A stretch of DNA of 41,500 nt, taken from assembly GCA_902782645.1 (NCBI GenBank), contig CACZNV010000034.1, positions 1 through 41,500 on the forward strand, written 5' to 3'. This stretch comes from an uncultured Ruminococcus sp. GTDB lineage: Bacteria > Bacillota > Clostridia > UBA1212. Below are positions 2,051 to 15,792 of the stretch, piece by piece. The translations under genes were made by a program, and so were the position numbers. The notes under the pieces are model-generated. The model was not told the origin of the DNA. It searched no databases and was given only the letters and a program-made list of their open reading frames with translations. Positions within the stretch are counted from its first letter, which is position 1. Each line of letters opens with the position of its first letter.

Positions 2051-2620
2051 ATGACTTTAAGCGAAATAATCAATCAAAAGAAGATATCTAAATACCGCGT
2101 AGCAAAAAACTGCGGAATTCCCTACACCACGCTGAATGATATCTGCAACAATAAAACTGTGATTGCCAAATGCAGCGCCGAAACAGTGTATAAACTCGCA
2201 AAAGAGCTTGGCGTATCCATGGAAGCCCTACTTGAGCCTTATCTCATACCCCGGCCGGATTTCGACCTCTTTAAAAGCAATGTTTGTCACCGCTTGAAAG
2301 AGCTGGGAGATATCACTTTTTTAATTGAAACAATTCAAAGCGGCGATATTATGACCTATTACAACCGATCGTGGTATCCTGAAAGTCTGTACCTGCTCGC
2401 CATGGTTGATTACATCAGCAGAATCAATAAAATACCCCTTTGCGATTCATACAACGAACTCCGCAAGGCAAAACTGAAAAAGCCGGTTTACCCGTCAAGT
2501 ATTATTGCCGCATACGCCGTATCAAAGGACGACAGTGTCAAGGAAAAGGCAAAAACCGCATCAATCCCGGAATTTTTGCGTTTTAACATCATCGAAAGCG
2601 AGGTAAGAAATGTCTACTGA
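2051..2620 (+). CDS. XRE/Cro-C1 HTH protein, putative antitoxin/regulator paired with the downstream nucleotidyltransferase
   Basis: N-terminal HTH (SKYRVAKNCGIPYTTLNDICN). ATG 2051 follows AGGTG and lies downstream of the promoter. Overlaps the next gene. Confidence 0.8.
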   Translation: MTLSEIINQKKISKYRVAKNCGIPYTTLNDICNNKTVIAKCSAETVYKLAKELGVSMEALLEPYLIPRPDFDLFKSNVCHRLKELGDITFLIETIQSGDIMTYYNRSWYPESLYLLAMVDYISRINKIPLCDSYNELRKAKLKKPVYPSSIIAAYAVSKDDSVKEKAKTASIPEFLRFNIIESEVRNVY

Positions 2621-2890
2621 GAACTCAACTGTATTTAAAAAAGACAATCTTGACTTTTACTTAAAAGAACTCGCAAAAGAATACAAAAAACTTGTCGGCA
2701 AAAAAATGCCTGCAGAAATTATATTGATTGGCGGCGCAGCAATTGTCGAAAGCTATGGCTTTAGGGATATGACAACCGATGTTGATGCTATCATCACAGC
2801 ATCCTCTGCAATGAAGGACGCAATTAATCTGACAGGCGACCGTTTTAATCTTCCTAACGGATGGTTAAACATGGATTTTCAAAAGACCGC
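2610..2890 (+). pseudogene. DUF6036-like nucleotidyltransferase (putative toxin), truncated by IS21 remnant
   Basis: IILIGGAA...TTDVD is a Pol-beta-superfamily NTase motif. Native sequence ends at GWLNMDFQKTA, and the ORF then reads into the IS end to a stop at 2957. Confidence 0.75.
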
Positions 2891-3679
2891 TGCATATAGC
2901 GGTGCCGTTGAACACCTCGGCCGTTCTGAATTGAACACCTTCGTCGCTCAAAACTGAACACCTTCGTCGTTGCTGCTGTACATTGACAAATTAATGATTT
3001 TGGAGCATCATAGAGTTGCTTTTAGCCGTACGGGGGGATAGGGCAACGCTGAGGAGCGACCTGAGCACCTGATACGGGATTTGGCGGGAAGAGTGATACT
3101 GTACGCCGCTCACGGCAGAGAATCGCTCTTCTTTTTTTGACCTGTCATACAACATCACTCTTCCCGGAAAATCTTAATGCGTTAAACCTCGGGTTCGGGC
3201 AGAGCCCGATGAGCCGTAGGCTCCTTACGCTTTTTCCTCTTTGACTCCTTTTCGCTTACGCATAGATTCTTTACAGTCAATTACGATATTATATGAGTCA
3301 TGAACGATGCGGTCGCATATTGCGTCTGCGAGTATTGGATCTCCGATTTTGTCCCGCCAACCAGGAACATCAAATTGAGAGCAGAAGATTGTTGACGCCT
3401 TTTTGTATCTCGCCTCAATTATTTCAAGCAGATCACGAGCTTCAGTTTCCTTTAACGGGTAAAGCAACCACTCATCAAGAATGAGCAATTGGTCATATTC
3501 TTGACCTCCTTATGTTGTATTCACGCTCTTGCGTGTAGCAACATATTACCGCCTGTATTATCGGTGTTCAACTTTTCCGACGATACTGTTCAGTTTTGAA
3601 CGACGAGGGTGTTCAGTTTTCGGCGTTGCAACTGTTCAATCAGTGCGGCCGAAGTGTCCAGTTTGGTGCGCTATATTCA
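2891..3679 (-). mobile_element. Internally deleted, non-autonomous IS21-family element (789 bp)
   Basis: TG...CA ends: TGCATATAGCG (2891) versus reverse complement TGAATATAGCG (3679). Multiple subterminal TGAACA(C) repeats at both ends. Contains an istB 3' fragment. No clear 4-7 bp target duplication (only GC on each side). Confidence 0.85.
3225..3488 (-). pseudogene. istB: IstB ATPase C-terminal fragment
   Basis: LILDEW (Walker B)...LLEIIEARY..STIFCSQ...ADAICDRIVH...ESMR. Walker A is absent. Confidence 0.88.
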
Positions 3680-3690
3680 GCTTTTATTCC

Positions 3691-3742
3691 CTTGATTTTC
3701 GCCACAGAGTACATTTTTTTATACTCTGTGGCGAAAATCAAG
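3691..3742. repeat. Perfect 21-bp inverted repeat with 10-nt loop
   Basis: CTTGATTTTCGCCACAGAGTA (3691-3711) / TACTCTGTGGCGAAAATCAAG (3722-3742). Confidence 0.95.
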
Positions 3743-3854
3743 CGTTTATTTCAGAAATAGCCTTCAGCACGATATCCTGACCAACCTTTAATTGAGCATT
3801 CTGCTCGTTGTATCCGGATGCTTTATTCTTTTCGATTTCTTCATATAGATTCAT
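3738..3854 (-). pseudogene. Probable N-terminal remnant (38 aa) of an AbiEii-type nucleotidyltransferase toxin
   Basis: Not in the ORF track. MNLYEEIEKNKASGYNEQNAQLKVGQDIVLKAISEINA*, coupled (TGATG) to the AbiEi-like gene. Resembles clostridial AbiEii N-termini and stops before the expected KGG motif. The stop codon lies in the hairpin arm. Confidence 0.6.
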
Positions 3855-4339
3855 CAGAGCACCTCCAATTGTATCATGTTCATAATCCTGGCGCTGCTTT
3901 TAAACATAGCTGCATAATCCTCAACAAGTCCGAAATCCATCTCGAAGGAAATCTTGCGGTAGTTACCTATGATCTCCTTATAATAGTCCATCGGTATTCT
4001 GGACTTAAGCCTCATAAGTTCAACCAGCATTCGCTCCTTATCATATATACGGATGCTGGAGTTATTGTATTGTATCTCTGTGATACCGGTGTAAATGTTA
4101 GTATAAATGTTGGTTTCAAACATTTCATCTTTCATGAAGAACTGCACGACACGTGGATCCTTTATCCTTGTATCCGTTCGTTTGGTCGCGAGATAGTAAC
4201 GGTCCGGGATTACGTCAGTCAGCGAATGGTAGTAAAATGCACTTTCTCCGGTGAAGACAGTTTTAGGGTATTTTCGCATGATTATATCTGTTTCGGAAGC
4301 ATTCCTCTTGGTAGAATGTATTCCTGATTCCGCTTTCAA
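3854..4339 (-). CDS. AbiEi-like type IV TA antitoxin (5' end possibly truncated or frameshifted)
   Basis: VFTGESAFYYHSLTDVIP and IRIYDKERMLVELMR motifs. The strong AGGAGG (4369-4374) is not spaced for the TTG start at 4339. Confidence 0.72.
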   Translation of the reverse strand: MKAESGIHSTKRNASETDIIMRKYPKTVFTGESAFYYHSLTDVIPDRYYLATKRTDTRIKDPRVVQFFMKDEMFETNIYTNIYTGITEIQYNNSSIRIYDKERMLVELMRLKSRIPMDYYKEIIGNYRKISFEMDFGLVEDYAAMFKSSARIMNMIQLEVL

Positions 4340-4388
4340 TTTCTTAACATATACAAATGAACGCTATTCCTCCTATAATATATCTATT

Positions 4389-6194
4389 TTAGGGTAAATC
4401 GTCTGCTTTGAAATAAAACTTTTTAATCGTACACTCATAATCTTCATTTTCAATGAAAGGGCAATCTCCATTGTAATCAGCAGGATCAAAACGGATTCCA
4501 CCTACATACCCAAACCAATTTGTGTTGGTGCTCATGTCAATTCTATACGTATGGAACTCACCATCCGGCAATGTTTCGAATTCAACCATCCAATCATTAC
4601 GCCATATACTGCTAGCAACACTCGTAAAAAAAATCTGTGCCTTGTTACTCGTCCCTGTTATCTTCATTTCTATAAATATATTTTTAAAATGATTCGCATT
4701 TATACCGTACCCTAATTTAAACAGGTATGGATCCTCATCTGTTATAATAAAGTTTAACTCTCGGTTAATGCTTTTTGCAGATTCCATTTGGTGAACGTTG
4801 TCAAATATTTCACAGAGTTCTGGGTCATATACTGATTTTGAAACATCCTGCCCTGGGAGAGGAATAACATTTACGGTGAACTCAACAGGAGTCATTGATT
4901 GGCATTCAATTTTACGAATTATCATTGGCGGAATAGAAATGCTCTTAAGAACACGATATTGCTCTAAATCGGTTTTAATATTATAAACATATTTGTCATT
5001 CACAATCATGACAACATCATGACATGGATAATCGTCCATCCCGTTTATAAAATCTATTTTGCAAGAGTATACCTCAGGATTTACTATTATTTGTTGATCA
5101 AATTTATCATTATTATGAGTATTAGTCTCATTATCAAGTTTAATCTGATAACTGAGTATAAATTGATTATTCAGCTCTTTTTTTGAATACGTCAAAGATT
5201 TCAGCTTATACAAAATGTGGGGTAACACATCAAGTTCGACACTGTATCCATGTTCCAATGCTTTCTTTAATTTGCATCTATATTCGTCATCCTGACAAAG
5301 AACCGATGGGAAACGGCCACTTTTAGTCTGATACTTCATGTTTAACAGTCTGATTTTCTCTAAATCATCTGCAACTTTTCCAAACTTATCTATCAATTCA
5401 TGTAGCAACGGCTCAAGATTGTACTCATTTTCAATATAAAGCAATCTATCGTGTAAGTGTTTTTTATGCTTTATGAAATCATGTATAGTCTTATAGGATA
5501 AACTACATTCGGATGAATTTAGTTTATCCAGGAGCATTTGGTATATCTGAATTCCATAACAAATATTGGGATTATTATACAATTCTCCTCTAGGTGAGCT
5601 GTACCACTCGCACTCTTTTTCACAGCTGATATAATGCGATAGGTTTTTAATGAAAAGATCCGGATGGAAATCTCCTTGAAAAGAAACTTTTGGTTTAATT
5701 GTTGTAAATGTTTTATGCAAAGCATCTATACTGCCACCTTGCATATAATGATTCCTTATTTCGTACGCAGCTTTTACTAGTTCATTTGCATCAATATCAA
5801 CTATAACTTGTCCTCTCATTATATCAAAGAAAATGCTTTTAAACTTTTTTTTGTCCTTATCGTATTCATATATGATTAGTGGATGAACAAAATGATTGCT
5901 AAAATATCTTTTCGATGCTGATATGTAAAACTCATCCACCCAAAGTATTACAAATTTATCAAACATAATTTCTTGTTCTAATAATTCTTGCATATTCCTA
6001 ATGTCACCTATTTTATATTGTGCTATAGTATCAAACAGACCATAAAAATCTACATTGTCGACATAGTCAACAATGTCACCATACATCATAATATTGACAA
6101 ATCTCTCAAGAATCCATCCCTCTTGGCTAGACCGACTGAGGAACGCCAATAAAGGATTAATTTGCATGTAAGTACTCTTATTCGTATGACTCAT
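4389..6194 (-). CDS. Hypothetical protein: N-terminal BtrH-like/papain-like region plus C-terminal CBM-like beta-sandwich
   Basis: VILWVDEFYI...HFVHPLIIYEYD resembles the BtrH-like D-x-F-Y...H-x-x-x-I-Y-G-Y-D pattern. C-terminus has DPYL...AQIFF...DGEFHTYRIDMS...W-x-G...IRFDP. ORF is solid; function is tentative. Confidence 0.55.
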   Translation of the reverse strand: MSHTNKSTYMQINPLLAFLSRSSQEGWILERFVNIMMYGDIVDYVDNVDFYGLFDTIAQYKIGDIRNMQELLEQEIMFDKFVILWVDEFYISASKRYFSNHFVHPLIIYEYDKDKKKFKSIFFDIMRGQVIVDIDANELVKAAYEIRNHYMQGGSIDALHKTFTTIKPKVSFQGDFHPDLFIKNLSHYISCEKECEWYSSPRGELYNNPNICYGIQIYQMLLDKLNSSECSLSYKTIHDFIKHKKHLHDRLLYIENEYNLEPLLHELIDKFGKVADDLEKIRLLNMKYQTKSGRFPSVLCQDDEYRCKLKKALEHGYSVELDVLPHILYKLKSLTYSKKELNNQFILSYQIKLDNETNTHNNDKFDQQIIVNPEVYSCKIDFINGMDDYPCHDVVMIVNDKYVYNIKTDLEQYRVLKSISIPPMIIRKIECQSMTPVEFTVNVIPLPGQDVSKSVYDPELCEIFDNVHQMESAKSINRELNFIITDEDPYLFKLGYGINANHFKNIFIEMKITGTSNKAQIFFTSVASSIWRNDWMVEFETLPDGEFHTYRIDMSTNTNWFGYVGGIRFDPADYNGDCPFIENEDYECTIKKFYFKADDLP

Positions 6195-6353
6195 AGACGA
6201 TTTTACACCTATTAAAGATGTTTAACCTCCCTCTTCCTTATGATTACTTGACGTAGAGATTGACTGCTATCTTAGAGCTAACTTTTTATACATTCTAAAG
6301 TCCACTCGAAGACCATTGTTTTGATGATCTGGATAATTCGTCTTAGCATATTC

Positions 6354-7793
6354 TTACCCCAAAATATTTTTGTTAAGCCACTCAAGGAAAGAATCATTTT
6401 TGCCAGTCCTGCCTTGGATAATTTCAGAAATATGAGTTGTTCTCTTTAGATATTCTATCATTTGTTCTTCAACACTTCTTCCAATCACTCGACAAGAGAC
6501 CGAGAACAACATAAGAGTGTTCCCATCTACTACCATTGTTCCTATCAATCCATAATCATTAATACTATCTCGGTAGTATACAGAATAGGTTTGACCTATA
6601 CGATTTGAAAGCTCCCTTATAGTTAATCGAGATCCATTTGTCCTTTGGTTTGTCCTCATAGACAACTCTGATATCCTACTTAGTTCAAAATCCCGTGCAA
6701 TATGGATATCTACCAGACCAGCAGAATCCTTTCCATAATGCTTCATGCTTTGCATATTTCTATAGTTTGAAACCCTAATGTCTGCAAGAGCTTGCTTCTT
6801 GGGATTAAGTTTAAAGCACGATAACTGTTCGTAAATGGTGTACGAATCAAACAAAATTGACTGAACATCTGGAACTAAAGATGTCATCTCATTTATCTCA
6901 CACTCTGAATCATCAATAAACACAATACTATCCAATGAAAGATTTAAAATGGTGGAGATTTCCTGAATATTCTCTGCTTTATTCCTATAATTCGCTTTAA
7001 TAACAGAAAAAAGCTCTTCTCGTAATATCATTCCATTATGGTGGGCAAGGACATCGCGAATGCTTTTTTCGCTATTTTTTGTGCAAAGACATAGAATTGT
7101 TCCGCTATTGTACATCTGTAGAATAAACTTCTGAAAAGTTGAGTATTTTTTCGATATCATTATTCCTTCTATCCCGTTCTCATTTAAAACTCCATCCCAC
7201 AGCACTCCATCACAGTCAAGTACTATGCACTTGGGTGTTCTACAGTAAGTTACGCAGTACTGACAATAGATTTCCCTAACTATCTCCTCGATAGTTCTTT
7301 TTGAATATGGTGAACTCCAGCGATACCAGCCTTTATCATTGTAAGCGTTTTTAATCCCGATGCCAGCTATAATTCTCTTAAAATCTAGAAAAGAGTCATC
7401 TGCATCAATAATATCTGCCAGAAATAGATTCAGCTTATCCACTATACCATTGCAGGGAAGAATGTTTCCAAATATAAACCTATCCTTTCGGTTATAATCA
7501 TCAAAGCCTAGCCACATTATTTTTCCTTTACTCTTCTTTCTTACGCTGTCATATATTTCTTTGCACTTATCCATAATAATGTCAAACTGTTCCAGACTAG
7601 GATTGCCAGACAATTCTTCAAGGTTAATATGCAACAGCACCAGTTCACTCTCTACAGTGTCTACCATGCTGAGATTGTTTAGATATATAAACGTGAATTT
7701 AGATTTGTCTAAAAAATAGAATCTAAACGCATTTTTTAGATACGGTTCAAAATAGATATTGCTTATAACTGAAATACTTAACACCGCAATCAA
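6354..7793 (-). CDS. FkbH-like HAD-IIIC protein (glyceryl-ACP-forming phosphatase/transferase)
   Basis: KCIVLDCDGVLWDG (DxD), CTKN, NKAENI, VFIDDSECE, RISELSMRTNQ and SCRVIGR with the conserved Cys. ATGA-type 4-nt overlap with the ACP gene. Confidence 0.85.
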   Translation of the reverse strand: MIAVLSISVISNIYFEPYLKNAFRFYFLDKSKFTFIYLNNLSMVDTVESELVLLHINLEELSGNPSLEQFDIIMDKCKEIYDSVRKKSKGKIMWLGFDDYNRKDRFIFGNILPCNGIVDKLNLFLADIIDADDSFLDFKRIIAGIGIKNAYNDKGWYRWSSPYSKRTIEEIVREIYCQYCVTYCRTPKCIVLDCDGVLWDGVLNENGIEGIMISKKYSTFQKFILQMYNSGTILCLCTKNSEKSIRDVLAHHNGMILREELFSVIKANYRNKAENIQEISTILNLSLDSIVFIDDSECEINEMTSLVPDVQSILFDSYTIYEQLSCFKLNPKKQALADIRVSNYRNMQSMKHYGKDSAGLVDIHIARDFELSRISELSMRTNQRTNGSRLTIRELSNRIGQTYSVYYRDSINDYGLIGTMVVDGNTLMLFSVSCRVIGRSVEEQMIEYLKRTTHISEIIQGRTGKNDSFLEWLNKNILG

Positions 7794-8038
7794 TCCTCCA
7801 GTATTTCGCAGATGACTTGAATTATTTTTGATACTGATTCAAGCTCTAGAATCGACAACCTGTCATCCGGAAACTCAATATTGAAAGTCTTTTCTAGTTC
7901 AACAATTATCGCAATAAACTCAATTGAATCTACTCCTAACTCTATCAAACTATCTTCGTAATTTGATTCAGTTATAACTGCATTTTCGATGCAAGAGTTT
8001 ATTATTTCAACTACATTGATTATTGATGGTTTTTCCAT
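7790..8038 (-). CDS. Acyl carrier protein
   Basis: 82 aa, acidic. LGVDSIEFIAIIVELEKTFNIEF carries the phosphopantetheine-site Ser. Confidence 0.9.
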   Translation of the reverse strand: MEKPSIINVVEIINSCIENAVITESNYEDSLIELGVDSIEFIAIIVELEKTFNIEFPDDRLSILELESVSKIIQVICEILED

Positions 8039-8040
8039 TG

Positions 8041-8940
8041 TCAGCCTCCCATGAAGATTTGTTTGTTTAGTTGTATCTTTCTTCTATCCCTTTCCGTCAA
8101 ATACCCTTCTATGTAATCATTTAAATCATTTGATTCAAGTCTTGTCCTAAAGTCTACTGTCCATTCTTTTCGTTCTTTTTTGCAGAGGCCGTAAGCATTA
8201 AGCAGTTTTTCTCCTTCTGGCGTGCGAAATGCTTCCAAATACTCCAATAAAAAAGAATCGCCAAATATTTGTTTTGTATAAAAAAGAACATAAAAAACAT
8301 AAGGTATAATTTCGTATTCCTTACTGATTCTAAGCAAGTTTTGCACTGAAATATCCTCTATGTTGTTTTTTAGCAAGAAATAGATATCTTTAAACATTTC
8401 AGATCTAATTGTATTTCTTGTTGCAAGAAGAAATATACTGTTCATGTCCTTGTAATGGTGTAACACCAATTGCACCATCGCTTTTAAAGGCGGCAATGTT
8501 TTAACTTTTGTACCATATATGTCCATCTCTATAGCATCAGCCAAGAACTGCTCCATATTTATTTTTTTCCCTTCGTATTCTCCCCAAAAAATATCAAAAT
8601 TGACATCTATCACAATGGATTGATTCCCGATAGTTCTAACATATGGAATGATCTGGTGCGAAGAAGACAAACATAGAATTCGCTCCAGCCGATAATCCTT
8701 CATTGAACTAGGTCTACTATGAAAACCCATTTGTAGCAAATGATTCTCAAGGTCGCCTAAAAACGCTTTTGGCACAAGCAGATCAATATCATTGTATCTT
8801 CTTTCACTCTCATTGCCATAGCATTGTTTGGATAATGCAGCTCCCTTTACAAGAGAATATGGCATGTTCCTAATCTTTGAAAAAAAATCCAAATGATTCA
8901 GAAATGCAAAGACGGCTCCGTTACGTACTTCTTCTAACAC
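8041..8940 (-). CDS. Nucleotidyltransferase family protein (NTP_transf_5-like)
   Basis: LVKGAALS...Y...RRYNDIDLLV and later LVLHHYK. GGAGG RBS lies in the upstream gene end before GTG. Confidence 0.85.
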   Translation of the reverse strand: MLEEVRNGAVFAFLNHLDFFSKIRNMPYSLVKGAALSKQCYGNESERRYNDIDLLVPKAFLGDLENHLLQMGFHSRPSSMKDYRLERILCLSSSHQIIPYVRTIGNQSIVIDVNFDIFWGEYEGKKINMEQFLADAIEMDIYGTKVKTLPPLKAMVQLVLHHYKDMNSIFLLATRNTIRSEMFKDIYFLLKNNIEDISVQNLLRISKEYEIIPYVFYVLFYTKQIFGDSFLLEYLEAFRTPEGEKLLNAYGLCKKERKEWTVDFRTRLESNDLNDYIEGYLTERDRRKIQLNKQIFMGG

Positions 8941-8944
8941 TTTT

Positions 8945-9811
8945 CTAACCTCCTAATACTAAAGATTCTATGTCGTTTTTAACTTTTTTTAATGTTTCAA
9001 AATTGCTTGGTATATGCAGGAAGGAAACTGGAATATCCGAAAACAGAGATTCCATATCGATCCTTTTTATAATACTGTAAGGTAAAACACCAATCCCAAC
9101 TATGTTGTGATAGAGCATGCCTTTCTTTATTGCAGGGAGTTTGATTGGCTCTACCCATGGTTTGTTGTCGCTTGTTCTTCTAAGGAAAATAATACTTTCA
9201 ATCCTAGAAGGCTTTATTTTTGTATCATCAATACTATAATATCGTTTTCCGATAATATTCCGTTCCTTATTTACGTCAAATATATTAAGTTCAGAGACTG
9301 ACTGGTCCGTCAGTTTCATCAAATTATGCGCCCTAAACGGACGAGTTTTGGATCTTATCAACAGAGTATCATCGGAATACAATTTGAGTTGGTCTCCAGC
9401 TAAAAGATATGAAAGCGTGGTTTTTCCAACTCCCTTATCTCCTGAAATGCATATCACAGTTTTTTCCCGTAATAATGAACATGCATGAAATAAGCACCAC
9501 CCCTTACTCGCAAAGAATAAAGAGAATGGTATGTTAAAGAGTGTAGAAAAGAAAGACTCAAAAGAAGTTGCAAGACATCTTATCCTGTTGTCTTTCCCAT
9601 CTACATAATAGATTGCATAATCTCCTAATTTTATGATAAATGTATTATTATCTAGTTCTTCAACTGATATACCCTGGCAAGTGACTTTTCCTATTTCAAC
9701 ATGAAGATTCATAAAAAATGATTCGTTCGTATCCGTAGAAGAAAACTCACTTAAAAGCGGCATTTTTATATTTGAATATACAATTATTCCGTATATCTTA
9801 TAAATCCACAT
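8945..9811 (-). CDS. HPr-kinase-like P-loop kinase (lasso-peptide-kinase type)
   Basis: LFHACS...ISGDKGVGKTTL (Walker A)...YSDD, with N-terminal YKIYGI. No DRTGG-type HprK N-domain. Confidence 0.8.
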   Translation of the reverse strand: MWIYKIYGIIVYSNIKMPLLSEFSSTDTNESFFMNLHVEIGKVTCQGISVEELDNNTFIIKLGDYAIYYVDGKDNRIRCLATSFESFFSTLFNIPFSLFFASKGWCLFHACSLLREKTVICISGDKGVGKTTLSYLLAGDQLKLYSDDTLLIRSKTRPFRAHNLMKLTDQSVSELNIFDVNKERNIIGKRYYSIDDTKIKPSRIESIIFLRRTSDNKPWVEPIKLPAIKKGMLYHNIVGIGVLPYSIIKRIDMESLFSDIPVSFLHIPSNFETLKKVKNDIESLVLGG

Positions 9812-9828
9812 ATTCTTGACTGAAACGT

Positions 9829-11625
9829 TTATTGCACGTAGTGCTTCGCCTGTGCATGATACATTTTTGAATAGTTGTCGCAGCTCGCAAGCAGCTCGTC
9901 ATGTGAGCCGACTGCCTCCACGGTGTGGTTGTGGAGAAAAATAACGCTGTCTGCGTACTTGGCGACAGAAAGCCTGTGAGAGATGTAGAAAATCGTTTTT
10001 CCTTTGAGCGTCCTGTTGAATGTCTGTATCAGTTCGTCTTCGGCAAATGCATCCAGCGCCGACGAAGGCTCGTCAAGGATTACTATCGGCTGATCCTTAA
10101 ACAACACCCTGGCAAGGGCAAGTTTCTGAAGTTCGCCGCCGGAAAGGAGCACGCCGTTCTCGTCAAATATCCTGCCAAGCTTTGTGTCAATTCCGTTAGG
10201 CAGTCCGTCGATTTTTTCCTTCAGACCTGCATTGCACAAAGCATCATATATTTTGGCACGTACCTCCTCAGTGTCCCTGTAGTCATTCATCGCAACGTTT
10301 TCTGCAATAGACAGCGCGTAATACTTGTAGTCCTGAAAGACAATGCCTATCCGGTTTCTGTAGCTTCTGTAGTCAATTGACCGCAGGTCCACACCGTTGT
10401 ACATAATGCTGCCGTCGTTTACGTCATAGAGGCGGCAGATAAGCTTGCAAAGTGTGGTTTTTCCTTCGCCGTTTTCACCTACAATAACGTAAAATTTATT
10501 CTTCTCGATTTCAAGATTCACATTGCTCAGGACGTAGTTTTCACTGCCCGGATACTTGAAGCAGGCCTTGTCGAGCCTGTAGATATTAGCGGTTTCCGGA
10601 ATCTCATCGGCATTGCAGCCCTTGCCGTCAACCGCAATAGTATTCTCAGTCTCCATAAGCTCCCTGAAGGCTTCGATGTAAATCGAATTCTCGGCAAGGG
10701 TAATTATGTTGCCCGCAATTCCCGTCACCTGGGAGGAGAAAGTCGTCAGGGCAGTCAGAACCATTGTAAAGTCCGCCACGCTGAGGCCGAAAAAGACCAT
10801 GCGTATCGCAAGGAAAACGTAGTACAAGCCAAGTTCAATCGTGCCTATCGCATGCCTGATCGATCCGTTGGCTGTCGTTTTGTTGAGCAGGCGCCTTCCC
10901 AGCTTCTGAGACTTGTCAACGGTCTTTTTATACTTGGCGATAACCCAGTCCGAGATGGAATACATGCGCATGTCATTGGCGTAGTTTTCATCCACAAGCA
11001 TGGTCATGTAGTACGAAATCTCCCGGTTCACTTCCGTCAGTTCAAGCCTGTTCCTGTACTGTGCGCGCTTGTCAAGGCAAATCGTAATGATTTTCGTCAC
11101 CGTCAGCACCGCCATGACAACATAAACCCACTTGGAAACGATTGACAGGACCACGCCAAGGGACACAATCGAAACACCCGACGAAATAGCCGCAAAAGTC
11201 GCATCAAGAAATCCTGTCGCCACATTACTCTGCACCGCCTGCGTCGCCAATTCTTTGGTCTTAAGCGTTTTCGGGGAAAACAAAACCGCATAGTCAAGAG
11301 TCACAATTTTTGCCTGTATATCGAACAAAAGCGCATTTCTGTACAAATCGCCAATGATTCCAATCTTCCTGTTGAGCAGCAGCACAGCCTGCCCTTTCAC
11401 GTAGGAGGCCCCCACGATAATCAGTATTATCATCAGCGCCCCGTCCCAGCTCTTACCCAGCAGCTGCTCAATCAGCAGCTTTGAAAACAGGGCATTGAGC
11501 GCCGGCATAACACCATTTAGTAAAGCAATTAAAAACCTGCAAATAAAAAACATTTTGCTGAATTTCCATGCTTTTTTTATCATAAAAAGCTGATTACTCA
11601 TCAGTCCTTTAAATTTTAGTTTCAT
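9829..11625 (-). CDS. ABC exporter, fused permease/ATPase
   Basis: N-terminal TM helices, GENGEGKTT, Q-loop VFQD, LSGGELQK, IVILDEP, ISHRL. No N-terminal C39 peptidase domain. Confidence 0.93.
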   Translation of the reverse strand: MKLKFKGLMSNQLFMIKKAWKFSKMFFICRFLIALLNGVMPALNALFSKLLIEQLLGKSWDGALMIILIIVGASYVKGQAVLLLNRKIGIIGDLYRNALLFDIQAKIVTLDYAVLFSPKTLKTKELATQAVQSNVATGFLDATFAAISSGVSIVSLGVVLSIVSKWVYVVMAVLTVTKIITICLDKRAQYRNRLELTEVNREISYYMTMLVDENYANDMRMYSISDWVIAKYKKTVDKSQKLGRRLLNKTTANGSIRHAIGTIELGLYYVFLAIRMVFFGLSVADFTMVLTALTTFSSQVTGIAGNIITLAENSIYIEAFRELMETENTIAVDGKGCNADEIPETANIYRLDKACFKYPGSENYVLSNVNLEIEKNKFYVIVGENGEGKTTLCKLICRLYDVNDGSIMYNGVDLRSIDYRSYRNRIGIVFQDYKYYALSIAENVAMNDYRDTEEVRAKIYDALCNAGLKEKIDGLPNGIDTKLGRIFDENGVLLSGGELQKLALARVLFKDQPIVILDEPSSALDAFAEDELIQTFNRTLKGKTIFYISHRLSVAKYADSVIFLHNHTVEAVGSHDELLASCDNYSKMYHAQAKHYVQ

Positions 11626-11660
11626 AAGGTAATCGCTCCCATCATAACTGCTTCAGTGTT

Positions 11661-11687
11661 GCAAGGCAGGATTTTGTCCTGCCCCGC
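11661..11687 (-). terminator. Stem-loop after the precursor gene (attenuator/mRNA stabiliser, no U-tract)
   Basis: Minus strand GCGGGGCAGGA-CAAAA-TCCTGCCTTGC, an 11-bp stem with two G-U pairs, 10 nt after the stop codon. Confidence 0.6.
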
Positions 11688-11697
11688 TTTTCAAGAA

Positions 11698-11832
11698 TTA
11701 GCTTGTTGCTATGCAATTGTTGCAACCAACATTAATCTCCGGGCATCCAGCGTTTGGACAGACTTGTGGGCATACGCAATCACATCCTAGGCCAAGACCA
11801 AGTGGCTCTAATCCTGCTTGAATAATTTCCAT
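11698..11832 (-). CDS. Cys-rich RiPP precursor peptide (44 aa)
   Basis: Not in the ORF track. MEIIQAGLEPLGLGLGCDCVCPQVCPNAGCPEINVGCNNCIATS*. Strong RBS GAAAGGAG upstream of the ATG, 7 Cys, located between the rSAM and ABC genes. Confidence 0.88.
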   Translation of the reverse strand: MEIIQAGLEPLGLGLGCDCVCPQVCPNAGCPEINVGCNNCIATS

Positions 11833-11877
11833 TTTTTCTTCTCCTTTCACTATATTTGTTGAAATACGAATGTCAAG

Positions 11878-13200
11878 TCAATAATACTTCTTTATCATCT
11901 CCTCTATTTCGCATTTCACAACATCTAAATCACAGTCCATTTCTCCATATGCCATTCTAGCTTTAGGACATCTTTTTCCGAAACACAAAGGAAGAGCACT
12001 ACATTTTTTGCACTTGTTTGAAGACAAATAATCCGAATATACCCATTTGGAGTATAACGATTCGTTTATTTCAACGGTACCATCGTCTTCTATCCTTCCC
12101 AGATTATTTGTTTCATTGTCAAGATCAAACGAGCACTTTAACAAATATCCCTGATCGTCAAACACAAAGTAATTAGGTTTTGAAGCATAACAAACCCTGC
12201 TACACGGGAGGCTACGGCTAGTGACATTATTGCAAGATAATGCATATTCTTTAAGCATTCCCACAATTTCAACATTAATGAATAGTGATTCAATCTCACC
12301 TAAAAGTTGAGGAGTTTCACTATTTCCCTGATCCTTGATAGTCTCAAAGTATATGCCGATACGTTTGTCGTTTAGCTTTTCTGAAACATATTTATAAAAT
12401 TCCTGCAAACTATCCGCAACATCAAAATTAAAGTTAGTTCGAAGTGCTACCTTAAAGAGAGCAGTAGTTGTAACCATGTAACTTAGATTATTGATAATGG
12501 TCTGCCACGTAGGCTGCCCTCCCACAAGAGGCCTTGTTTTGTCATGTGTATAGCTCATTCCATCTACGGATATTTGATAAAATGAGCAATTCAGTGAAAC
12601 TAACTTGTCAAAATGATTAGGAGTTAACAGATAACCATTGGTTGACATTCCAGATTCCATATGTATGCCGGGAAAATCGGTATCTAGCATCGACTTTAGT
12701 TTTTCTAAAAACCATATTATATTATTATACTCTACGAGAGGTTCTCCACCAAAAAAAGTAACTCTGACATTTGAATAACCTCTCAGCAGCAATTGGTTTC
12801 GTACGAATGCGATGACGGAATCATAAGTCTCCTTTTCCATTTTACGATCCAAGTGAGGCTGACCACAGTACACACATCTAAAATTGCATTGCCGCGTAAC
12901 TATTAACATTATGTCGAGTGTGCTGTTTCGAATAACCCCTTCCTCATATAAGCACCTAACTAATAAATCCTCATCCGCATCAACATCTACAAATAACTTT
13001 TTATTGTAGAGAACAGATATAATATCATTTTTCTCATCAAATTCGATTTCTGGCTGAGACAATAATTGATTCAATCGATCAATATAGGTAATTTCCCGAA
13101 AAGCAATTATTGCCCCACTAAGAGAGCTATAAGCTATAACTGATCCATCGTCCTTGTTGATAAAGAAAGCATATCTGCTTCGCTTAAGTTTTTTACTCAT
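11878..13200 (-). CDS. Radical SAM/SPASM peptide maturase
   Basis: CNFRCVYC, FFGGEP, STNG, QISVDG. SPASM pattern C-x13-G-x4-C...C-x2-C-x5-C-x4-C-x11-C. About 90-aa N-terminal extension (possible RRE). Start set at ATG 13200 after AGAGG. Confidence 0.92.
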   Translation of the reverse strand: MSKKLKRSRYAFFINKDDGSVIAYSSLSGAIIAFREITYIDRLNQLLSQPEIEFDEKNDIISVLYNKKLFVDVDADEDLLVRCLYEEGVIRNSTLDIMLIVTRQCNFRCVYCGQPHLDRKMEKETYDSVIAFVRNQLLLRGYSNVRVTFFGGEPLVEYNNIIWFLEKLKSMLDTDFPGIHMESGMSTNGYLLTPNHFDKLVSLNCSFYQISVDGMSYTHDKTRPLVGGQPTWQTIINNLSYMVTTTALFKVALRTNFNFDVADSLQEFYKYVSEKLNDKRIGIYFETIKDQGNSETPQLLGEIESLFINVEIVGMLKEYALSCNNVTSRSLPCSRVCYASKPNYFVFDDQGYLLKCSFDLDNETNNLGRIEDDGTVEINESLYSKWVYSDYLSSNKCKKCSALPLCFGKRCPKARMAYGEMDCDLDVVKCEIEEMIKKYY

Positions 13201-13715
13201 AATAAGCCTCTTTCTAAATTCGTACTCGATTTTAATCAAAACGGAACAATCTGTTGAATAAATGTGTATAAAAAGGAGTCTTTTACGCACATTCATTCAA
13301 ACCATCTCTTTCAGGAAACAGGTATTCAATCAAAATAAGCCATATGCTTACAATGAGAGAATAAACTCAAGTAGTGAAACCCTCGTGTGCTAATCACAGC
13401 CTACATGAAATGAGCCGAGAAAGATGTTGTTAGATACACCTCATACCATTACATGCTCATTTCTCATTTGAACAACACACCCCGTCCTTAATACAACTCA
13501 ACTGTAATAGCAGAATAATCATGGCATCGAATTGTTCAATGTCTTAAATATACTCTGTTTACACGCCTTGCTATAATCTACTACATTTCGAGAAAGAATC
13601 TAATACAGAAACAACTTAAACCCAATGACGACGCTTAAAAGTGAAAAACATTGAACTATATGCTTCTGTATTAATTGCCAGCGTTAGTGGCAAGCATCCC
13701 CTTCTGTCATGAACC

Positions 13716-13745
13716 ATTATACAGCTGTTCAATATCTGTTGTCAA
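13716..13745 (-). promoter_or_regulatory. Putative sigma-A promoter facing the biosynthetic cluster
   Basis: Minus strand TTGACA-18 nt-TATAAT. Confidence 0.6.
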
Positions 13746-14022
13746 GTATTATTTTTAATAAAAACCGTGTGAAATTTGACTGTATTTCAGTATTTTGTAA
13801 GTTTTTGTTGAATTATTAACAGATCATCTTGTGGTCATTCCCAGTTTATGATAAATACGTTTTATCGACTGTTGCATACATCTGTCGACATCTTCTAAAT
13901 AATTAAAGCCTCTCTGCAGCGCTTTGCATTAATTCACCTCTCAATGAATCCTTCTCTTTAAATACAATTTATACAAGCGTGATTCATGGCCTTTAATGCA
14001 AAAACTTAAAACTGAGCGTTTT

Positions 14023-14808
14023 TTAACCCAGGGCTACGTCCAGGGCCATCATAAGTGTAAAGCCTAATGCGAACATCACAACGCCTGAGTGCGCATGCTC
14101 GCCCGAAGACATCTCCGGAATCAGTTCCTCCACAACGACATACATCATTGCGCCTGCGGCAAATGAAAGCAGGTAAGGCATTGCCGGCACCACAAGGCCC
14201 GCAAAAACCACCGTTAGAGCTGCCGCAACCGGTTCAACAACGCCTGAAAGCACACCGTCAAGGAACGCCCGGCCCTTGGTCTTGCCCTCTGCGTGGAGGG
14301 GCATGGAGATGATGGCACCCTCGGGAAAGTTTTGAATTGCGATACCGATTGCAAGCGCCAATGCACCGCTCATGGTTATATTGGCGGAGTGGGAGAGAAC
14401 GCCCGCATAAACAACACCCACAGCCATGCCCTCAGGGATGTTGTGCAGCGTGACCGCAAGCACCATCATTGTTGTCCTTTTGACTTTGCTTCTCGGACCC
14501 TCGGCCTTGTCGGCAAACATGTGCAGGTGAGGCACCACATTGTCAAGCAGCAGCAGGAAAAGTATCCCGAGCCAGAAGCCAATGAAGGCGGGGGCAAAGG
14601 CCCATTTTTCCATTGGCGATTCCTCCTGCTCTATCGCCGGTATGATCAGGCTCCAGATGGATGCAGCGACCATCACCCCCGCCGCAAAACCCGTCAAGGC
14701 CTTTTGAACTTTTTCGTTTAGTTTTTTTCTCATGAAGAACACGCAGGCCGAACCCAGCGCTGTTCCCGCAAACGGAATCCCTATTCCCAATATAACTTCC
14801 GGCAGCAT
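14023..14808 (-). CDS. ZIP family metal transporter (ZupT/GufA-like), copy 1
   Basis: GFAAGVMVAASIWSL, HNIPEG, QNFPEG, EELIPE. ATG 14808 follows AGGAGGTG. Confidence 0.93.
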   Translation of the reverse strand: MLPEVILGIGIPFAGTALGSACVFFMRKKLNEKVQKALTGFAAGVMVAASIWSLIIPAIEQEESPMEKWAFAPAFIGFWLGILFLLLLDNVVPHLHMFADKAEGPRSKVKRTTMMVLAVTLHNIPEGMAVGVVYAGVLSHSANITMSGALALAIGIAIQNFPEGAIISMPLHAEGKTKGRAFLDGVLSGVVEPVAAALTVVFAGLVVPAMPYLLSFAAGAMMYVVVEELIPEMSSGEHAHSGVVMFALGFTLMMALDVALG

Positions 14809-14831
14809 AAGGCACCTCCTCAGCAGGCTTT

Positions 14832-14877
14832 TGTTAGCCTGCGCTAACATACTATATCGGAAACAGCCGCTTGTCAA
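14832..14877 (-). promoter_or_regulatory. Promoter with DtxR/MntR-like operator palindrome
   Basis: TTGACA-17 nt-TAGTAT running into TGTTAGC-GCAG-GCTAACA (14832-14849), a TTAG-N6-CTAA core upstream of a metal transporter. Confidence 0.65.
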
Positions 14878-15006
14878 TCGCCAAATGCCTTTTTTAAGGG
14901 AAAAAGTTAAAAAATCGGTAACTTGTTTGCTGCCGCCAATGAAATCCGCAACTTGCTTATAATCAAAAATGATTTCGCATCTTGACGAAATCATTTTCAA
15001 AGTTCT

Positions 15007-15321
15007 TCATGCGGTTACAATCACGCCGGATTTTTCAGGAAATGAAGGATCTTTTTGCGTCATCGTGAGCAATCGGCAGGCTGTGCCCTCCGGGTGATTT
15101 CTTCCGGACTCCCATGCTTCCACCGTTTTAGGAGAAACACCCATATATTTTGCGAAGAGCACCTGTGTCAACCCGGTTGCAAGGCGAATACTCTTTATAT
15201 CCTCTGCGGTGAAAGACTCCAACGGCTGAATTGAAAGAACCGTGACCTTTGCTTTTCCACGGCCTTTTTCATAGTCGATTGCCTGGTTCAACCCAGTTTT
15301 CAAATCTTCAAACAAACTCAT
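15007..15321 (-). CDS. HigA-type XRE antitoxin
   Basis: MSLFEDLKTGLNQAI N-terminus and HTH LTQVLFAKYMGVSPKTVEAWESGR. ATGA overlap with the toxin gene. Confidence 0.87.
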   Translation of the reverse strand: MSLFEDLKTGLNQAIDYEKGRGKAKVTVLSIQPLESFTAEDIKSIRLATGLTQVLFAKYMGVSPKTVEAWESGRNHPEGTACRLLTMTQKDPSFPEKSGVIVTA

Positions 15322-15680
15322 CTTTTTTCTCCTTTCCGTGCATTCTCGTACAGTTGGGCCTCTAATTCCATAATCAACCCCCGAAGTTCGTTGCACTCTT
15401 CATCAGATAAGTTTTCTTTTTCATTCTTAGCATATGCGGTCAATAAATAGATTATCTCAAAAACCTCAAAATCCACGTATACAACACGCACACTTCCGCT
15501 TTTTCCTCGCCGTTCAAATGCAAAACGCATTTTCCGTATTCCACCGGTTTTCCGCATCACTGCACCGGTTTTCGGATTAATCACCAATTCTTCCTGAAGT
15601 CTGCGCAAATCGTCGTCTGTGAATCCAAGTCGTTTCCATTTTGAACTGAATTGAGGGAGTTCAATAAATGTTCTTGTCAT
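15318..15680 (-). CDS. RelE/HigB-family toxin
   Basis: FIELPQF...GAVMRKTGGIRKMRF...GKSGSVRVVY...YLLTAYAKNEKENLS. Toxin-first gene order. RBS AAGGAG. Confidence 0.9.
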   Translation of the reverse strand: MTRTFIELPQFSSKWKRLGFTDDDLRRLQEELVINPKTGAVMRKTGGIRKMRFAFERRGKSGSVRVVYVDFEVFEIIYLLTAYAKNEKENLSDEECNELRGLIMELEAQLYENARKGEKR

Positions 15681-15702
15681 AATAAACTCCTTTTTCTTTT
15701 TC

Positions 15703-15731: not shown

Positions 15732-15792
15732 CGCTCTTTTGAAGAAAAAGGAGATTATTCTTTTCGGGTCAAACTGTCTCAGCCTCTTTGTC

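What the first reader, a model, noticed from the sequence alone, without database searches (positions are those of the whole stretch)
4389..13745. Hybrid RiPP cluster: radical SAM/SPASM + Cys-rich peptide + lasso-type kinase/NTase + FkbH-ACP + BtrH-like protein
Seen: eight co-oriented genes, with the kinase-NTase-ACP-FkbH run nearly abutting, in an AT-rich block. Known: rSAM/SPASM enzymes with Cys-rich precursors make thioether-bridged sacti/ranthipeptides. HPr-kinase-like enzymes and nucleotidyltransferases tailor paeninodin/pseudomycoidin-type lasso peptides. FkbH/OzmB-type enzymes load glycerate from 1,3-bisphosphoglycerate onto ACPs in polyketide pathways. Clostridial CLI_3235-type loci already pair Cys-rich peptides, rSAM and ACP-like proteins. 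Inference: three normally separate tool kits act on one peptide, giving a thioether-crosslinked, phosphorylated and glyceryl-decorated product. I know of no characterised pathway with this combination.
Basis: partly seen in the sequence, partly recalled or inferred. Interest (0 to 1): 0.92.

Follow-up and report, generated by a model that had tools for sequence, protein, structure and literature searches.

The report
Peptide gene cluster with glycerate-loading cassette
A gut bacterium carries an intact, horizontally acquired gene cluster for a small cysteine-rich peptide. Its crosslinking enzyme sits next to an uncharacterised but widely conserved set of kinase, nucleotidyltransferase, carrier-protein and glycerate-loading genes, which probably add a new kind of decoration to the peptide.

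Summary
Eight co-oriented minus-strand genes (4389-13296) encode a radical SAM/SPASM maturase, a 44-aa Cys-rich precursor ending in Ser, an ABC exporter, an HprK-like kinase, a PF14907 nucleotidyltransferase (NTase), an ACP, an FkbH enzyme and a 601-aa BtrH-like protein.

The combination is a conserved architecture, not chance. Of 80 FkbH-relative loci from other species' genomes, 37 carry the NTase and all 37 also carry an ACP. HprK-like kinases occur in 24 of those 37 and in 0 of the other 43. Radical SAM genes occur in 25 of 37 against 7 of 43. Twenty-two loci combine NTase, ACP, FkbH, rSAM and kinase.

The N-terminal half of the 601-aa protein is homologous (hhalign 99.5%) to the protein encoded directly after FkbH elsewhere. 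It folds like carrier-protein-dependent papain-like enzymes (CcbD, AziU2/U3) but has no conserved catalytic Cys.

Three homologous precursors from other samples also end in Ser, which fits C-terminal Ser phosphorylation.

The cluster lies in a ~12-kb low-GC insert. Its ABC gene is a ~98%-identical segment that sits in other contexts in other samples.

My searches found no paper on this combination. The product chemistry is inferred, not shown. I rate it a new variant of a known kind (a RiPP with a new tailoring cassette).

The parts
13716..13745 (-). Promoter-like site (TTGACA-18-TATAAT, 12 of 12) about 420-520 nt upstream of the rSAM gene
   Evidence: This is a consensus match only; promoter-like sites overall are not enriched over shuffles (43 against 39.6).
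11878..13296 (-). Radical SAM/SPASM peptide maturase with an N-terminal extension of the CefB/TIGR04463/Clo7bot kind. Probable true start near 13200.
   Evidence: PF04055 63 bits; TIGR04085 39.3 bits (cutoff 27); CefB 156 bits (cutoff 600); TIGR04463 151; Clo7bot 129; PapB 95 (cutoff 340). A CxxxCxxC motif is visible in the translation.
11698..11832 (-). Precursor peptide, 44 aa: leader ending in GLGLG, a core with 7 Cys, C-terminal Ser
   Evidence: Shine-Dalgarno AAGGAG before the ATG; three homologous 41-45-aa peptides (E 6e-10 to 1e-5) with 17 invariant columns, all ending in Ser.
11661..11687 (-). Stable stem-loop just after the precursor stop codon, with no U-tract
   Evidence: 11-bp stem, -21 kcal/mol, z -3.95, 0 of 200 shuffles fold as well. 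It was not reported by the terminator scan. A role in attenuation or transcript stability is inferred.
9829..11625 (-). ABC exporter (fused permease and ATPase, no N-terminal peptidase domain). Foreign, recently replaced segment spanning 9828-11658.
   Evidence: PF00005 100.9 bits; MsbA-like 210 bits, below cutoff. (47% GC); contigs of runs X3, X4 and X9 match only 9828-11658 at about 98% and continue with unlike sequence at both ends.
8945..9811 (-). HprK-related P-loop kinase-like protein
   Evidence: TIGR04355 E 4.8e-4, TIGR04352 E 3.9e-3, both below cutoff. His, GK[ST]T and DD invariant or nearly so across 16 homologues; a sister group matches TIGR04352 at E 4.6e-13. HPr kinase 3tqf at E 2.9e-4 among generic P-loop hits.
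8041..8940 (-). PF14907 nucleotidyltransferase
   Evidence: 74.3 bits, cutoff 31.2. 60% identical to the L019 homologue.
7790..8038 (-). Acyl carrier protein
   Evidence: PF00550 39.7 bits, cutoff 20.8. A PF01648 phosphopantetheinyl transferase is present elsewhere in the genome.
6354..7793 (-). FkbH-type HAD-IIIC phosphatase/glyceryl transferase
   Evidence: TIGR01686 157 bits, cutoff 146.65; TIGR01681 63.6. D193, D195 and C434 invariant in 26 homologues.
4389..6194 (-). 601-aa protein: an N-terminal BtrH/CcbD-like papain-fold domain plus helical domain (residues 1-336), then two beta-sandwich domains

Best explanation
This is one intact, horizontally acquired RiPP biosynthetic gene cluster. 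It belongs to a recurrent but uncharacterised type found mainly in gut Clostridia.

Proposed pathway:
1. The 44-aa precursor is bound through its leader by the N-terminal part of the radical SAM/SPASM enzyme. That enzyme crosslinks the Cys-rich core, most likely through thioethers of the sacti/ranthipeptide kind. This step is inferred.
2. The HprK-like kinase phosphorylates the hydroxyl of the C-terminal Ser, by analogy with paeninodin. Inferred.
3. The PF14907 NTase extends that phosphate with a glycosyl or nucleotidyl group, by analogy with pseudomycoidin. Inferred.
4. FkbH converts 1,3-bisphosphoglycerate to glyceryl-S-ACP. This is a family-level inference and the motifs are intact.
5. The 601-aa protein has a papain-like, carrier-protein-enzyme fold but no nucleophilic Cys. 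It brings glyceryl-ACP and the peptide together, and either catalyses direct His-assisted transfer of the glyceryl unit or acts as an adaptor. This is the weakest step.
6. The ABC exporter secretes the product. No dedicated leader peptidase is evident.

What is shown: gene identities, intact motifs, conserved synteny across many species, a conserved precursor family with a C-terminal Ser, and the island-like insertion. What is not shown: every chemical step.
For: Gene assignments.

Conserved architecture, in 80 loci anchored on FkbH relatives:
- The NTase is in 37 loci and an ACP is in all 37.
- The NTase gene ends within 1.5 kb upstream of FkbH in 24 of 37.
- HprK-like: 24 of 37 against 0 of 43 loci without the NTase.
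- rSAM: 25 of 37 against 7 of 43.
- The c5 family (the 601-aa protein's N-terminal family): 20 of 37 against 7 of 43.
- NTase+ACP+rSAM+HprK-like in 22 loci, 11 of them also with c5.
- The full order rSAM-ABC-HprK-NTase-ACP-FkbH-c5 occurs in L019 and L020 (FkbH 49% and 42% identical).
- Order-level relative G020 has HprK-S26-rSAM-NTase-ACP-FkbH.

The 601-aa protein:
- hhalign A1 against c5: 99.5%, E 3e-23, 295 columns.
- The N-terminal model has pLDDT 83.9.
- The only 4 PDB hits at E <= 1e-3 are AziU2/U3 and CcbD, TM 0.45-0.49.
- Nearest Atlas clusters are BtrH_N/DUF4872/C39_2, score 0.96.
- CcbD, BtrH and CtaG are carrier-protein-dependent transferases (PMC12945683 and PMC12865890, passages read).
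- The G006 homologue (53% identical) overlaps an AMP-binding ligase gene and has ACPs nearby.

Precursor:
- 3 homologues, 17 invariant columns, 4 of 4 end in Ser.
- In loci with the long (RRE-type) rSAM, all 7 candidate precursors I found end in Ser, Thr or Tyr: window, L020, L054, two in L024 and two in L032.
- The kinase/NTase precedent comes from PMC8498205 (passages read).

Other: a PPTase is present in the genome. Island insertion.
Against: - No chemistry was observed.
- The kinase assignment rests on sub-threshold family matches and three motifs. The PDB profile search is dominated by generic P-loop hits.
- The 601-aa family and c5 have no conserved Cys: no alignment column has Cys in more than 8 of 20 sequences. 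The Cys-His-Asp/Glu ping-pong mechanism of CtaG/BtrH/CcbD therefore cannot apply as described.
- c5-family genes also follow ABC-ABC pairs in loci with no FkbH within the stretch held (L011/G007, L100, L018). That fits an export or leader-processing role.
- Precursors of the second architecture (PqqD plus a small rSAM) end in Ile, Cys, Gly or Lys, so a C-terminal hydroxyl is not universal.
- Precursors were not found in L019, L025 or L027.
- The HMMs used for the counts were built from a subset of the same loci, and related genomes are not independent.
- The ABC gene is a foreign segment, and I could not exclude an assembly chimera at 9828-11658.
Confidence: 0.55

Rival explanations
1. The cluster is one RiPP pathway, but the 601-aa/c5 protein is not an acyl transferase. 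It would be an export-associated leader-processing enzyme or a non-catalytic adaptor (a C39-like relic). The glyceryl unit would then be transferred by another protein or used differently.
For: - BtrH_N is closely related to the C39/C70 peptidases (PMC10318531, passage read).
- The ABC exporter lacks a peptidase domain, and the leader ends in a Gly-rich GLGLG motif.
- c5-family genes directly follow ABC-ABC pairs without FkbH in L011, L100 and L018.
- No other protease is present in the window cluster.
- No Cys is conserved, which fits a non-catalytic role.
Against: - A Cys-less papain fold is also a poor peptidase.
- c5 genes start within about 60 nt of the FkbH end in 14 of the 22 loci that have both on the same strand.
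- c5 occurs with ACP-FkbH in loci where no ABC gene was detected (L022, L037, L050, L088).
- The G006 homologue is coupled to an AMP-binding ligase, and that cluster has its own S8 protease.
- The best full-length structural matches are carrier-protein pathway enzymes, not peptidases.
Confidence: 0.22
2. The NTase-ACP-FkbH(-c5) cassette does not decorate the peptide. It makes or primes something else, for example the NTase modifies the ACP, or a glycerate-derived small molecule or cell-surface decoration is produced and exported by the ABC pump alongside the RiPP.
For: - NTase and ACP are the tightest pair (37 of 37).
- 12 of 37 NTase loci show no rSAM gene in the stretch held.
- FkbH-ACP pairs without the NTase occur widely outside RiPP contexts (18 of 43 loci).
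- NTase-fold enzymes that prime ACPs exist. This point is recalled, not tested.
Against: - HprK-like, PqqD, signal-peptidase-like and rSAM genes accompany the NTase-bearing cassette specifically (24, 14 and 25 of 37 against 0, 0 and 7 of 43).
- The lasso-peptide precedent shows that a PF14907 enzyme acts on a phosphorylated peptide (PMC8498205).
- Several rSAM-less loci are cut by contig ends (L034, L035, L038).
Confidence: 0.15
3. The eight genes are unrelated neighbours, or the contig is an assembly chimera, so no combined pathway exists in a real cell.
For: - The genome is a 180-contig metagenome-assembled genome.
- The ABC segment 9828-11658 occurs in other contexts in other samples, and assembled contigs break at its edges.
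Against: - The same gene order, including an ABC gene at the same position, recurs in independent assemblies from other species (L019, L020, L027, L054).
- Run X2, from another study, holds pieces all along the cluster at 95-99+% identity.
- Gene spacing of 2-17 nt and a 4-nt overlap indicate an operon.
Confidence: 0.05

Closest known systems
Paeninodin/pseudomycoidin-type lasso peptide tailoring (HPr-kinase homologue plus PF14907-type nucleotidyltransferase)
   Same: An HprK-like P-loop protein and a PF14907 NTase sit side by side. The precursor has a C-terminal Ser, the residue those kinases phosphorylate; in pseudomycoidin the NTase then adds hexose to the phosphate (PMC8498205, passages read).
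   Different: There is no lasso cyclase, B1/B2 proteins or lasso-type precursor. The core enzyme is a radical SAM/SPASM maturase. The kinase matches the HprK-related models only below cutoff. The NTase is coupled to ACP-FkbH, which lasso clusters are not reported to contain.
Radical SAM/SPASM maturases of Cys-rich peptides (CefB, TIGR04463, Clo7bot, PapB ranthipeptide, CcpM/CLI_3235)
   Same: Full-length alignment to these models, a CxxxCxxC motif, a SPASM domain and an adjacent Cys-rich precursor.
   Different: Every equivalog score is far below its cutoff (156 against 600, 151 against 525, 129 against 600, 95 against 340, 71 against 500). The precursor matches no NCBIfam or Pfam model. The crosslink type is unknown.
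FkbH/OzmB glyceryl-ACP formation in polyketide and tetronate pathways
   Same: The FkbH domain scores above its curated cutoff. The HAD Asp pair and a C-terminal Cys are invariant. A stand-alone ACP is encoded immediately upstream. The enzymology of the family is recalled, not read here.
   Different: There is no ketosynthase, no methoxymalonyl-forming enzymes and no tetronate genes. The partners are RiPP enzymes.
Papain-like carrier-protein-dependent ligases/transferases (BtrH, CtaG, AsbE; CcbD/LmbD)
   Same: Bipartite architecture of a papain-like alpha/beta domain plus a helical domain. Structural matches to CcbD (TM 0.47). Atlas neighbours are BtrH_N/DUF4872. A His is conserved. The gene lies next to carrier-protein loading genes (PMC12865890 and PMC12945683, passages read).
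   Different: No conserved nucleophilic Cys. Pfam BtrH_N scores below cutoff. There are two extra C-terminal beta-sandwich domains. The presumed acceptor is a ribosomal peptide.
NCBIfam 'HPr-rel-A system' (HprK-related kinase A plus PqqD-family chaperone), an uncharacterised database-defined system
   Same: The sister architecture in L045, L055 and L056 has a PqqD protein (TIGR04353, E 1.6e-5) and a kinase matching TIGR04352 (E 4.6e-13) next to the same NTase-ACP-FkbH cassette.
   Different: All scores are below the curated cutoffs. The window has the RRE-type long rSAM instead of a separate PqqD, and a more divergent kinase.

Membership tests
Radical SAM/SPASM RiPP maturase (superfamily level) | Radical SAM core with CxxxCxxC, plus a C-terminal SPASM auxiliary-cluster domain | tested here: met
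   PF04055 63 bits (cutoff 29.5); TIGR04085 39.3 bits (cutoff 27); motif visible in the translation.
Named rSAM equivalogs (CefB, TIGR04463, Clo7bot, PapB, CcpM) | Score above the curated equivalog cutoff | tested here: not met
   156 against 600, 151 against 525, 129 against 600, 95 against 340, 71 against 500.
Sacti-/ranthipeptide | Cys sulfur to carbon thioether crosslinks in the mature peptide | not testable with these tools
   Needs mass spectrometry or NMR of the product.
CLI_3235/CcpM Cys-rich bacteriocin system | Precursor that matches the family's precursor model | tested here: not met
   The precursor matched 0 NCBIfam and 0 Pfam families.
Paeninodin-type HprK-homologue peptide kinase | HprK-type catalytic core (His, P-loop, DD) | tested here: inconclusive
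   His, GK and T invariant and the DD pair invariant or nearly so in 16 homologues. TIGR04355/TIGR04352 match only at E 5e-4 and 4e-3, below the cutoff of 200 bits. PDB HPr kinase hit at E 2.9e-4 among generic P-loop hits.
Paeninodin-type HprK-homologue peptide kinase | Substrate peptide with a C-terminal Ser | tested here: met
   The window peptide and its 3 homologues all end in Ser.
Lasso peptide cluster | Asn-synthetase-like cyclase and a B1/B2 leader peptidase | tested here: not met
   None among the eight genes or the flanks.
PF14907 nucleotidyltransferase | Score above the Pfam gathering cutoff | tested here: met
   74.3 bits against 31.2.
FkbH glyceryl-ACP-forming enzymes | FkbH domain above cutoff, with the HAD Asp pair and a C-terminal Cys | tested here: met
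   TIGR01686 157 bits against 146.65. D193, D195 and C434 invariant in 26 sequences. The catalytic role of these residues is recalled from the literature.
FkbH glyceryl-ACP-forming enzymes | Loads glycerate from 1,3-bisphosphoglycerate onto the partner ACP | not testable with these tools
   Needs an in vitro assay.
BtrH/CtaG/CcbD-type papain-like carrier-protein-dependent transferases | Bipartite papain-like plus helical architecture | tested here: met
   Model pLDDT 83.9, with an alpha/beta region (35-168) and helices (178-332). CcbD TM 0.47 and AziU2/U3 TM 0.45-0.49.
BtrH/CtaG/CcbD-type papain-like carrier-protein-dependent transferases | Cys-His-Asp/Glu catalytic triad | tested here: not met
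   No invariant Cys in the N-terminal domain of the 11 sequences in A1. No column has Cys in more than 8 of 20 sequences, while the His is kept in 19 of 20.
BtrH/CtaG/CcbD-type papain-like carrier-protein-dependent transferases | Pfam BtrH_N above the gathering cutoff | tested here: not met
   19.5 bits against 29.7. L023 c5 scores 21.5 bits.

The most novel reading that the evidence does not exclude
NTase-ACP-FkbH-(Cys-less BtrH/CcbD-fold protein) is a portable RiPP tailoring cassette. It takes a primary-metabolite unit (glycerate from 1,3-bisphosphoglycerate) on a carrier protein and attaches it to a radical-SAM-crosslinked ribosomal peptide, probably at or through a phosphorylated C-terminal Ser/Thr/Tyr. 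That would be the first FkbH/ACP-dependent decoration of a RiPP, and a new, Cys-independent use of the papain-like carrier-protein-enzyme fold.
Probability: 0.35. Interest if true: 0.82.

Novelty: new variant of a known kind. Interest (0 to 1): 0.68.

Why it matters
RiPP tailoring with carrier-protein-bound building blocks is rare. The cases I can recall use fatty-acid or polyketide units and GNAT-type transferases, and I did not check that point here.

This cassette would bring a glycolytic intermediate into peptide maturation through an FkbH enzyme. It would use a Cys-less member of the recently recognised papain-like carrier-protein enzyme class. It recurs in at least 22 species-level genomes, mostly gut Clostridia, and pairs with two different radical SAM core machineries. 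It is therefore a general but unstudied module, not a one-off.

The work also gives a testable substrate rule (a C-terminal hydroxyl residue) and a small, synthesisable precursor for biochemical study.

Tried and rejected
Things that led nowhere or were rejected:
- PDB sequence-profile search with the 601-aa family: 0 hits at E <= 1.
- Foldseek on the full-length model was dominated by beta-sandwich/CBM-like hits to the C-terminal half. I therefore modelled the N-terminal 345 residues alone.
- Metagenome scan with the 601-aa family: only 2 loci.
- The precursor profile was not found in 45 other genomes of the same order (1 of 46 genomes, the window's own).
- Repeats at the edges of the ABC segment: nothing meaningful.
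- No tRNA in the window.
- No RNA holder was listed among the sequencing runs.
- Parts of the cluster without cover in X3, X4 and X9 are not evidence of absence.
- The near-consensus promoter at 11876-11849 would start transcription inside the precursor's Shine-Dalgarno sequence, so I do not rely on it.
- Precursors were not found in L019 (transposase-like fragments lie between rSAM and ABC), L025 or L027.
- I did not use complex prediction. An enzyme with its carrier is a poor case for it by the tool's own guidance.

Literature:
- No paper holds FkbH + RiPP + radical SAM.
- 8 papers hold FkbH + 'ribosomally synthesized' (7 listed); from the titles and abstract openings listed, none is about a RiPP pathway (papers not opened).
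- HAD-IIIC + radical SAM + peptide: 0.
- PF14907: 2 papers held, 1 listed, on phosphonates.
- HPr kinase + radical SAM + 'ribosomally synthesized': 1 paper, and its one 'HPr kinase' passage is about lasso clusters.
- AziU3 + AziU2: 0, so what AziU2/U3 do is recalled only.
-, a loose 2-of-6-terms search, listed nothing containing FkbH.
- Supplements were closed and not seen. Those of PMC12865890 (lists of CtaG homologues) could bear on whether c5-like proteins were already noted.

Full report
**The genes**

The window is contig C34 of a 2.15-Mb, 180-contig metagenome-assembled genome. Eight co-oriented ORFs lie on the minus strand between 4389 and 13296. Pfam and NCBIfam scans identify them as follows.
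- A radical SAM/SPASM enzyme at 11878-13296. It aligns over its full length to maturases of Cys-rich peptides (CefB 156 bits, TIGR04463 151, Clo7bot 129, PapB 95), always far below the equivalog cutoffs.
- A small Cys-rich ORF.
- An ABC exporter without a peptidase domain.
- A P-loop protein with only weak HprK-related matches.
- A PF14907 nucleotidyltransferase (74 bits).
- An ACP.
- An FkbH-domain protein above its curated cutoff (157 against 146.65).
- A 601-aa protein with a sub-threshold BtrH_N match.

The peptide most likely starts at the ATG at 11832, nine bases after AAGGAG. That gives 44 residues: a leader ending in GLGLG, a core with seven Cys, and a C-terminal Ser. A stable stem-loop follows its stop codon (-21 kcal/mol, z -3.95). 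Gene spacings run from a 4-nt overlap to 17 nt for ABC through FkbH.

**The precursor is a real gene**

A full HMMER scan of 1.84 billion representatives found three related peptides of 41-45 aa (E 6e-10 to 1e-5). The four sequences share 17 invariant columns, including the Gly-rich end of the leader and the motifs CDC and GCPxINxGC. All four end in Ser. The profile was found in none of 45 other genomes of the same order, so the family is rare.

**The combination is conserved**

I anchored on FkbH. Twenty-six homologues seeded a scan of one genome per prokaryotic species, and the best 80 loci were kept. I built HMMs from clustered neighbours and assigned families in all 80 loci.
- NTase in 37 loci; an ACP in all 37.
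- HprK-like proteins in 24 of the 37 and in 0 of the 43 loci without the NTase.
- rSAM in 25 of 37 against 7 of 43.
- Signal-peptidase-like proteins in 14 of 37 against 0 of 43.
- The NTase gene ends within 1.5 kb upstream of FkbH in 24 of 37.
- Twenty-two loci combine NTase, ACP, FkbH, rSAM and an HprK-like gene.

L019 and L020 have exactly the window's order. Caveats: the HMMs come from a subset of the same loci, relatives are not independent, and several loci are cut by contig ends.

Two architectures appear:
- The window's type has a long rSAM of about 450 aa with an N-terminal extension.
- A second type has a separate PqqD-family protein, a small rSAM/SPASM of about 350 aa, a signal-peptidase-I-like protein and a kinase matching HprK-related kinase A at E 4.6e-13.

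The tailoring genes are better conserved than the core enzyme. Against L019, the NTase is 60% identical and FkbH 49%, but the rSAM only 28%. That is what a portable cassette would show.

**The 601-aa protein**

Only 12 clusters in 5.8 billion resemble it, and none is named. Its residues 12-336 match the c5 family by profile-profile comparison (99.5%, E 3e-23, 295 columns). The c5 family consists of proteins of about 340 aa. Their genes start within about 60 nt of the FkbH end in 14 of the 22 loci that have both on the same strand.

A model of the N-terminal 345 residues (pLDDT 83.9) has an alpha/beta domain followed by a helical domain. Its only PDB matches at E <= 1e-3 are AziU2/U3 and CcbD (TM 0.45-0.49). 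Papain-like cores such as a phytochelatin-synthase-like protein, PeiR and GtgE follow. The protein-language Atlas places it next to BtrH_N/DUF4872/Peptidase_C39_2 clusters (0.96).

From passages I read:
- CcbD/LmbD form an amide from a carrier-protein-bound acyl group with a Cys-His-Glu triad (PMC12945683).
- CtaG, AsbE and BtrH form a class of papain-like, carrier-protein-dependent ligases with a bipartite architecture and a Cys-His-Asp triad (PMC12865890).

A same-genus homologue (G006, 53% identical) overlaps an AMP-binding ligase gene. Two ACP-like genes, an rSAM, an S8 protease and two ABC genes lie nearby. That is a second, independent link to carrier-protein chemistry.

Against a canonical mechanism, no Cys is conserved: none in the N-terminal domain of the 11-member family, and no column has Cys in more than 8 of 20 sequences, while one His is kept in 19 of 20. 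In addition, c5-family genes follow ABC-ABC pairs with no FkbH in the stretch held in L011, L100 and L018. The acyl-transfer role is my preferred reading, but I give it under one half. A leader-processing or adaptor role is the main rival.

The C-terminal half is two beta-sandwich domains. The last of these resembles a domain found in many ~1000-aa proteins of related genomes. Its role is unknown.

**Kinase and NTase**

Sixteen kinase-like homologues share a His, a GK[ST]T P-loop and a DD pair, the pattern I recall from HPr kinase. PDB HPr kinases appear only weakly (E 2.9e-4) among generic P-loop hits. All 42 database relatives are unnamed.

The functional precedent comes from lasso peptides. 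[quoted passage not shown] This fits the data: the window's precursor family ends in Ser in 4 of 4 members, and the seven candidate precursors I found next to long-type rSAM genes end in Ser, Thr or Tyr. Precursors of the second architecture end in Ile, Cys, Gly or Lys, so the rule is not general.

**Proposed pathway**

1. Leader-guided rSAM crosslinking of the Cys-rich core.
2. Phosphorylation of Ser44.
3. Extension by the NTase.
4. FkbH loads glycerate onto the ACP. The HAD Asp pair and the C-terminal Cys are invariant, and a PPTase is present in the genome.
5. The 601-aa protein delivers the glyceryl unit.
6. ABC export.

Gene identities, motifs, synteny and precursor conservation are shown. 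Every chemical step is inferred.

**Genomic setting**

In three congeners the DUF3810 gene and a ZIP transporter gene are direct neighbours (G005, G002, G006). In the window they are 12.1 kb apart (1916-14022). The insert has 32-41% GC against 52-56% in the flanks and also carries HTH/DUF6036 and AbiEi-like genes. The cluster is therefore an acquired island.

Within it, the ABC gene is 47% GC. Contigs from three other gut-metagenome runs, from different studies, match only 9828-11658. In X4 the match has 33 differences in 1831 bases. They continue with unrelated sequence at both edges. So this exporter gene is a recently exchanged segment, or less likely an assembly artefact. Run X2 holds pieces along the whole cluster at 95-99+% identity, with a 3-nt longer variant of the peptide gene.

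**Novelty**

Ten full-text searches found no paper linking FkbH or HAD-IIIC enzymes to RiPPs or to radical SAM peptide maturases. They also found none on PF14907 beyond a phosphonate survey, and none on HPr-kinase homologues in RiPPs outside lasso peptides. Subscription-only papers and supplements were not searchable.

I file this as a new variant of a known kind: a radical-SAM RiPP cluster with an undescribed, recurrent tailoring cassette. I do not file the 601-aa protein as a BtrH/CtaG-class member, because the catalytic Cys was tested and not met. It may still work in a similar way.

Noticed in passing
window 9828-11658: The ABC exporter gene is 47% GC inside a 32-36% GC cluster. Contigs from runs X3, X4 and X9 (other studies) match only this segment at about 98% and continue with unlike sequence at both edges. 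This looks like recent in-situ replacement of the exporter gene, or possibly an assembly chimera.
   Followed up: partly
window 1916-14022: A ~12.1-kb low-GC insert lies between a DUF3810 gene and a ZIP transporter gene that are direct neighbours in three congeners (G005, G002, G006). Besides the cluster it carries HTH (1967-2620), DUF6036 nucleotidyltransferase-like (2610-2957) and AbiEi-like (3854-4339, named by eye, no family hit) genes.
   Followed up: partly
window 14023-16947: Two ZIP transporter paralogues (70% identical) are separated by a RelE-like/HTH pair (15007-15704). G006 also has two adjacent ZIP copies.
   Followed up: no
L019 4889-5525: In the closest full-architecture relative, transposase-like ORF fragments occupy the rSAM-ABC gap where the window has its precursor gene. 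No precursor was found there.
   Followed up: partly
L012 10352-14800 (G020:C13): A second, degraded copy of NTase (173 aa), FkbH (338 aa) and a 601-aa homologue with an in-frame TGA, with transposase-like fragments between them. It lies opposite an intact HprK-S26-rSAM-NTase-ACP-FkbH operon.
   Followed up: partly
window 4389-4800 (C-terminal ~120 residues of the 601-aa protein): This beta-sandwich domain matches (E 1e-13 to 1e-4) a domain in dozens of ~1000-aa proteins in related genomes, including two in the window's own genome (C108, C53). Those proteins were not annotated.
   Followed up: no
window 17012-20041 and 24142-30021: Large minus-strand ORFs of 1009 aa (no Pfam family at E <= 1e-3) and 1959 aa (not examined).
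   Followed up: no
window 11770-11776: Run X2 carries a variant of the precursor gene with a net 3-nt insertion. This is the place where the homologous peptides P0133 and P0135 have one extra Gly.
   Followed up: no
L023, L024, L026, L032, L041, L051, L055, L056, L064 and others: A glyoxalase/VOC-family gene (PF13669, E 3.5e-15 in L023) is often inserted between NTase and ACP (VOC in 9 of 37 NTase loci), and a methyltransferase gene in three. Both are absent from the window.
   Followed up: no
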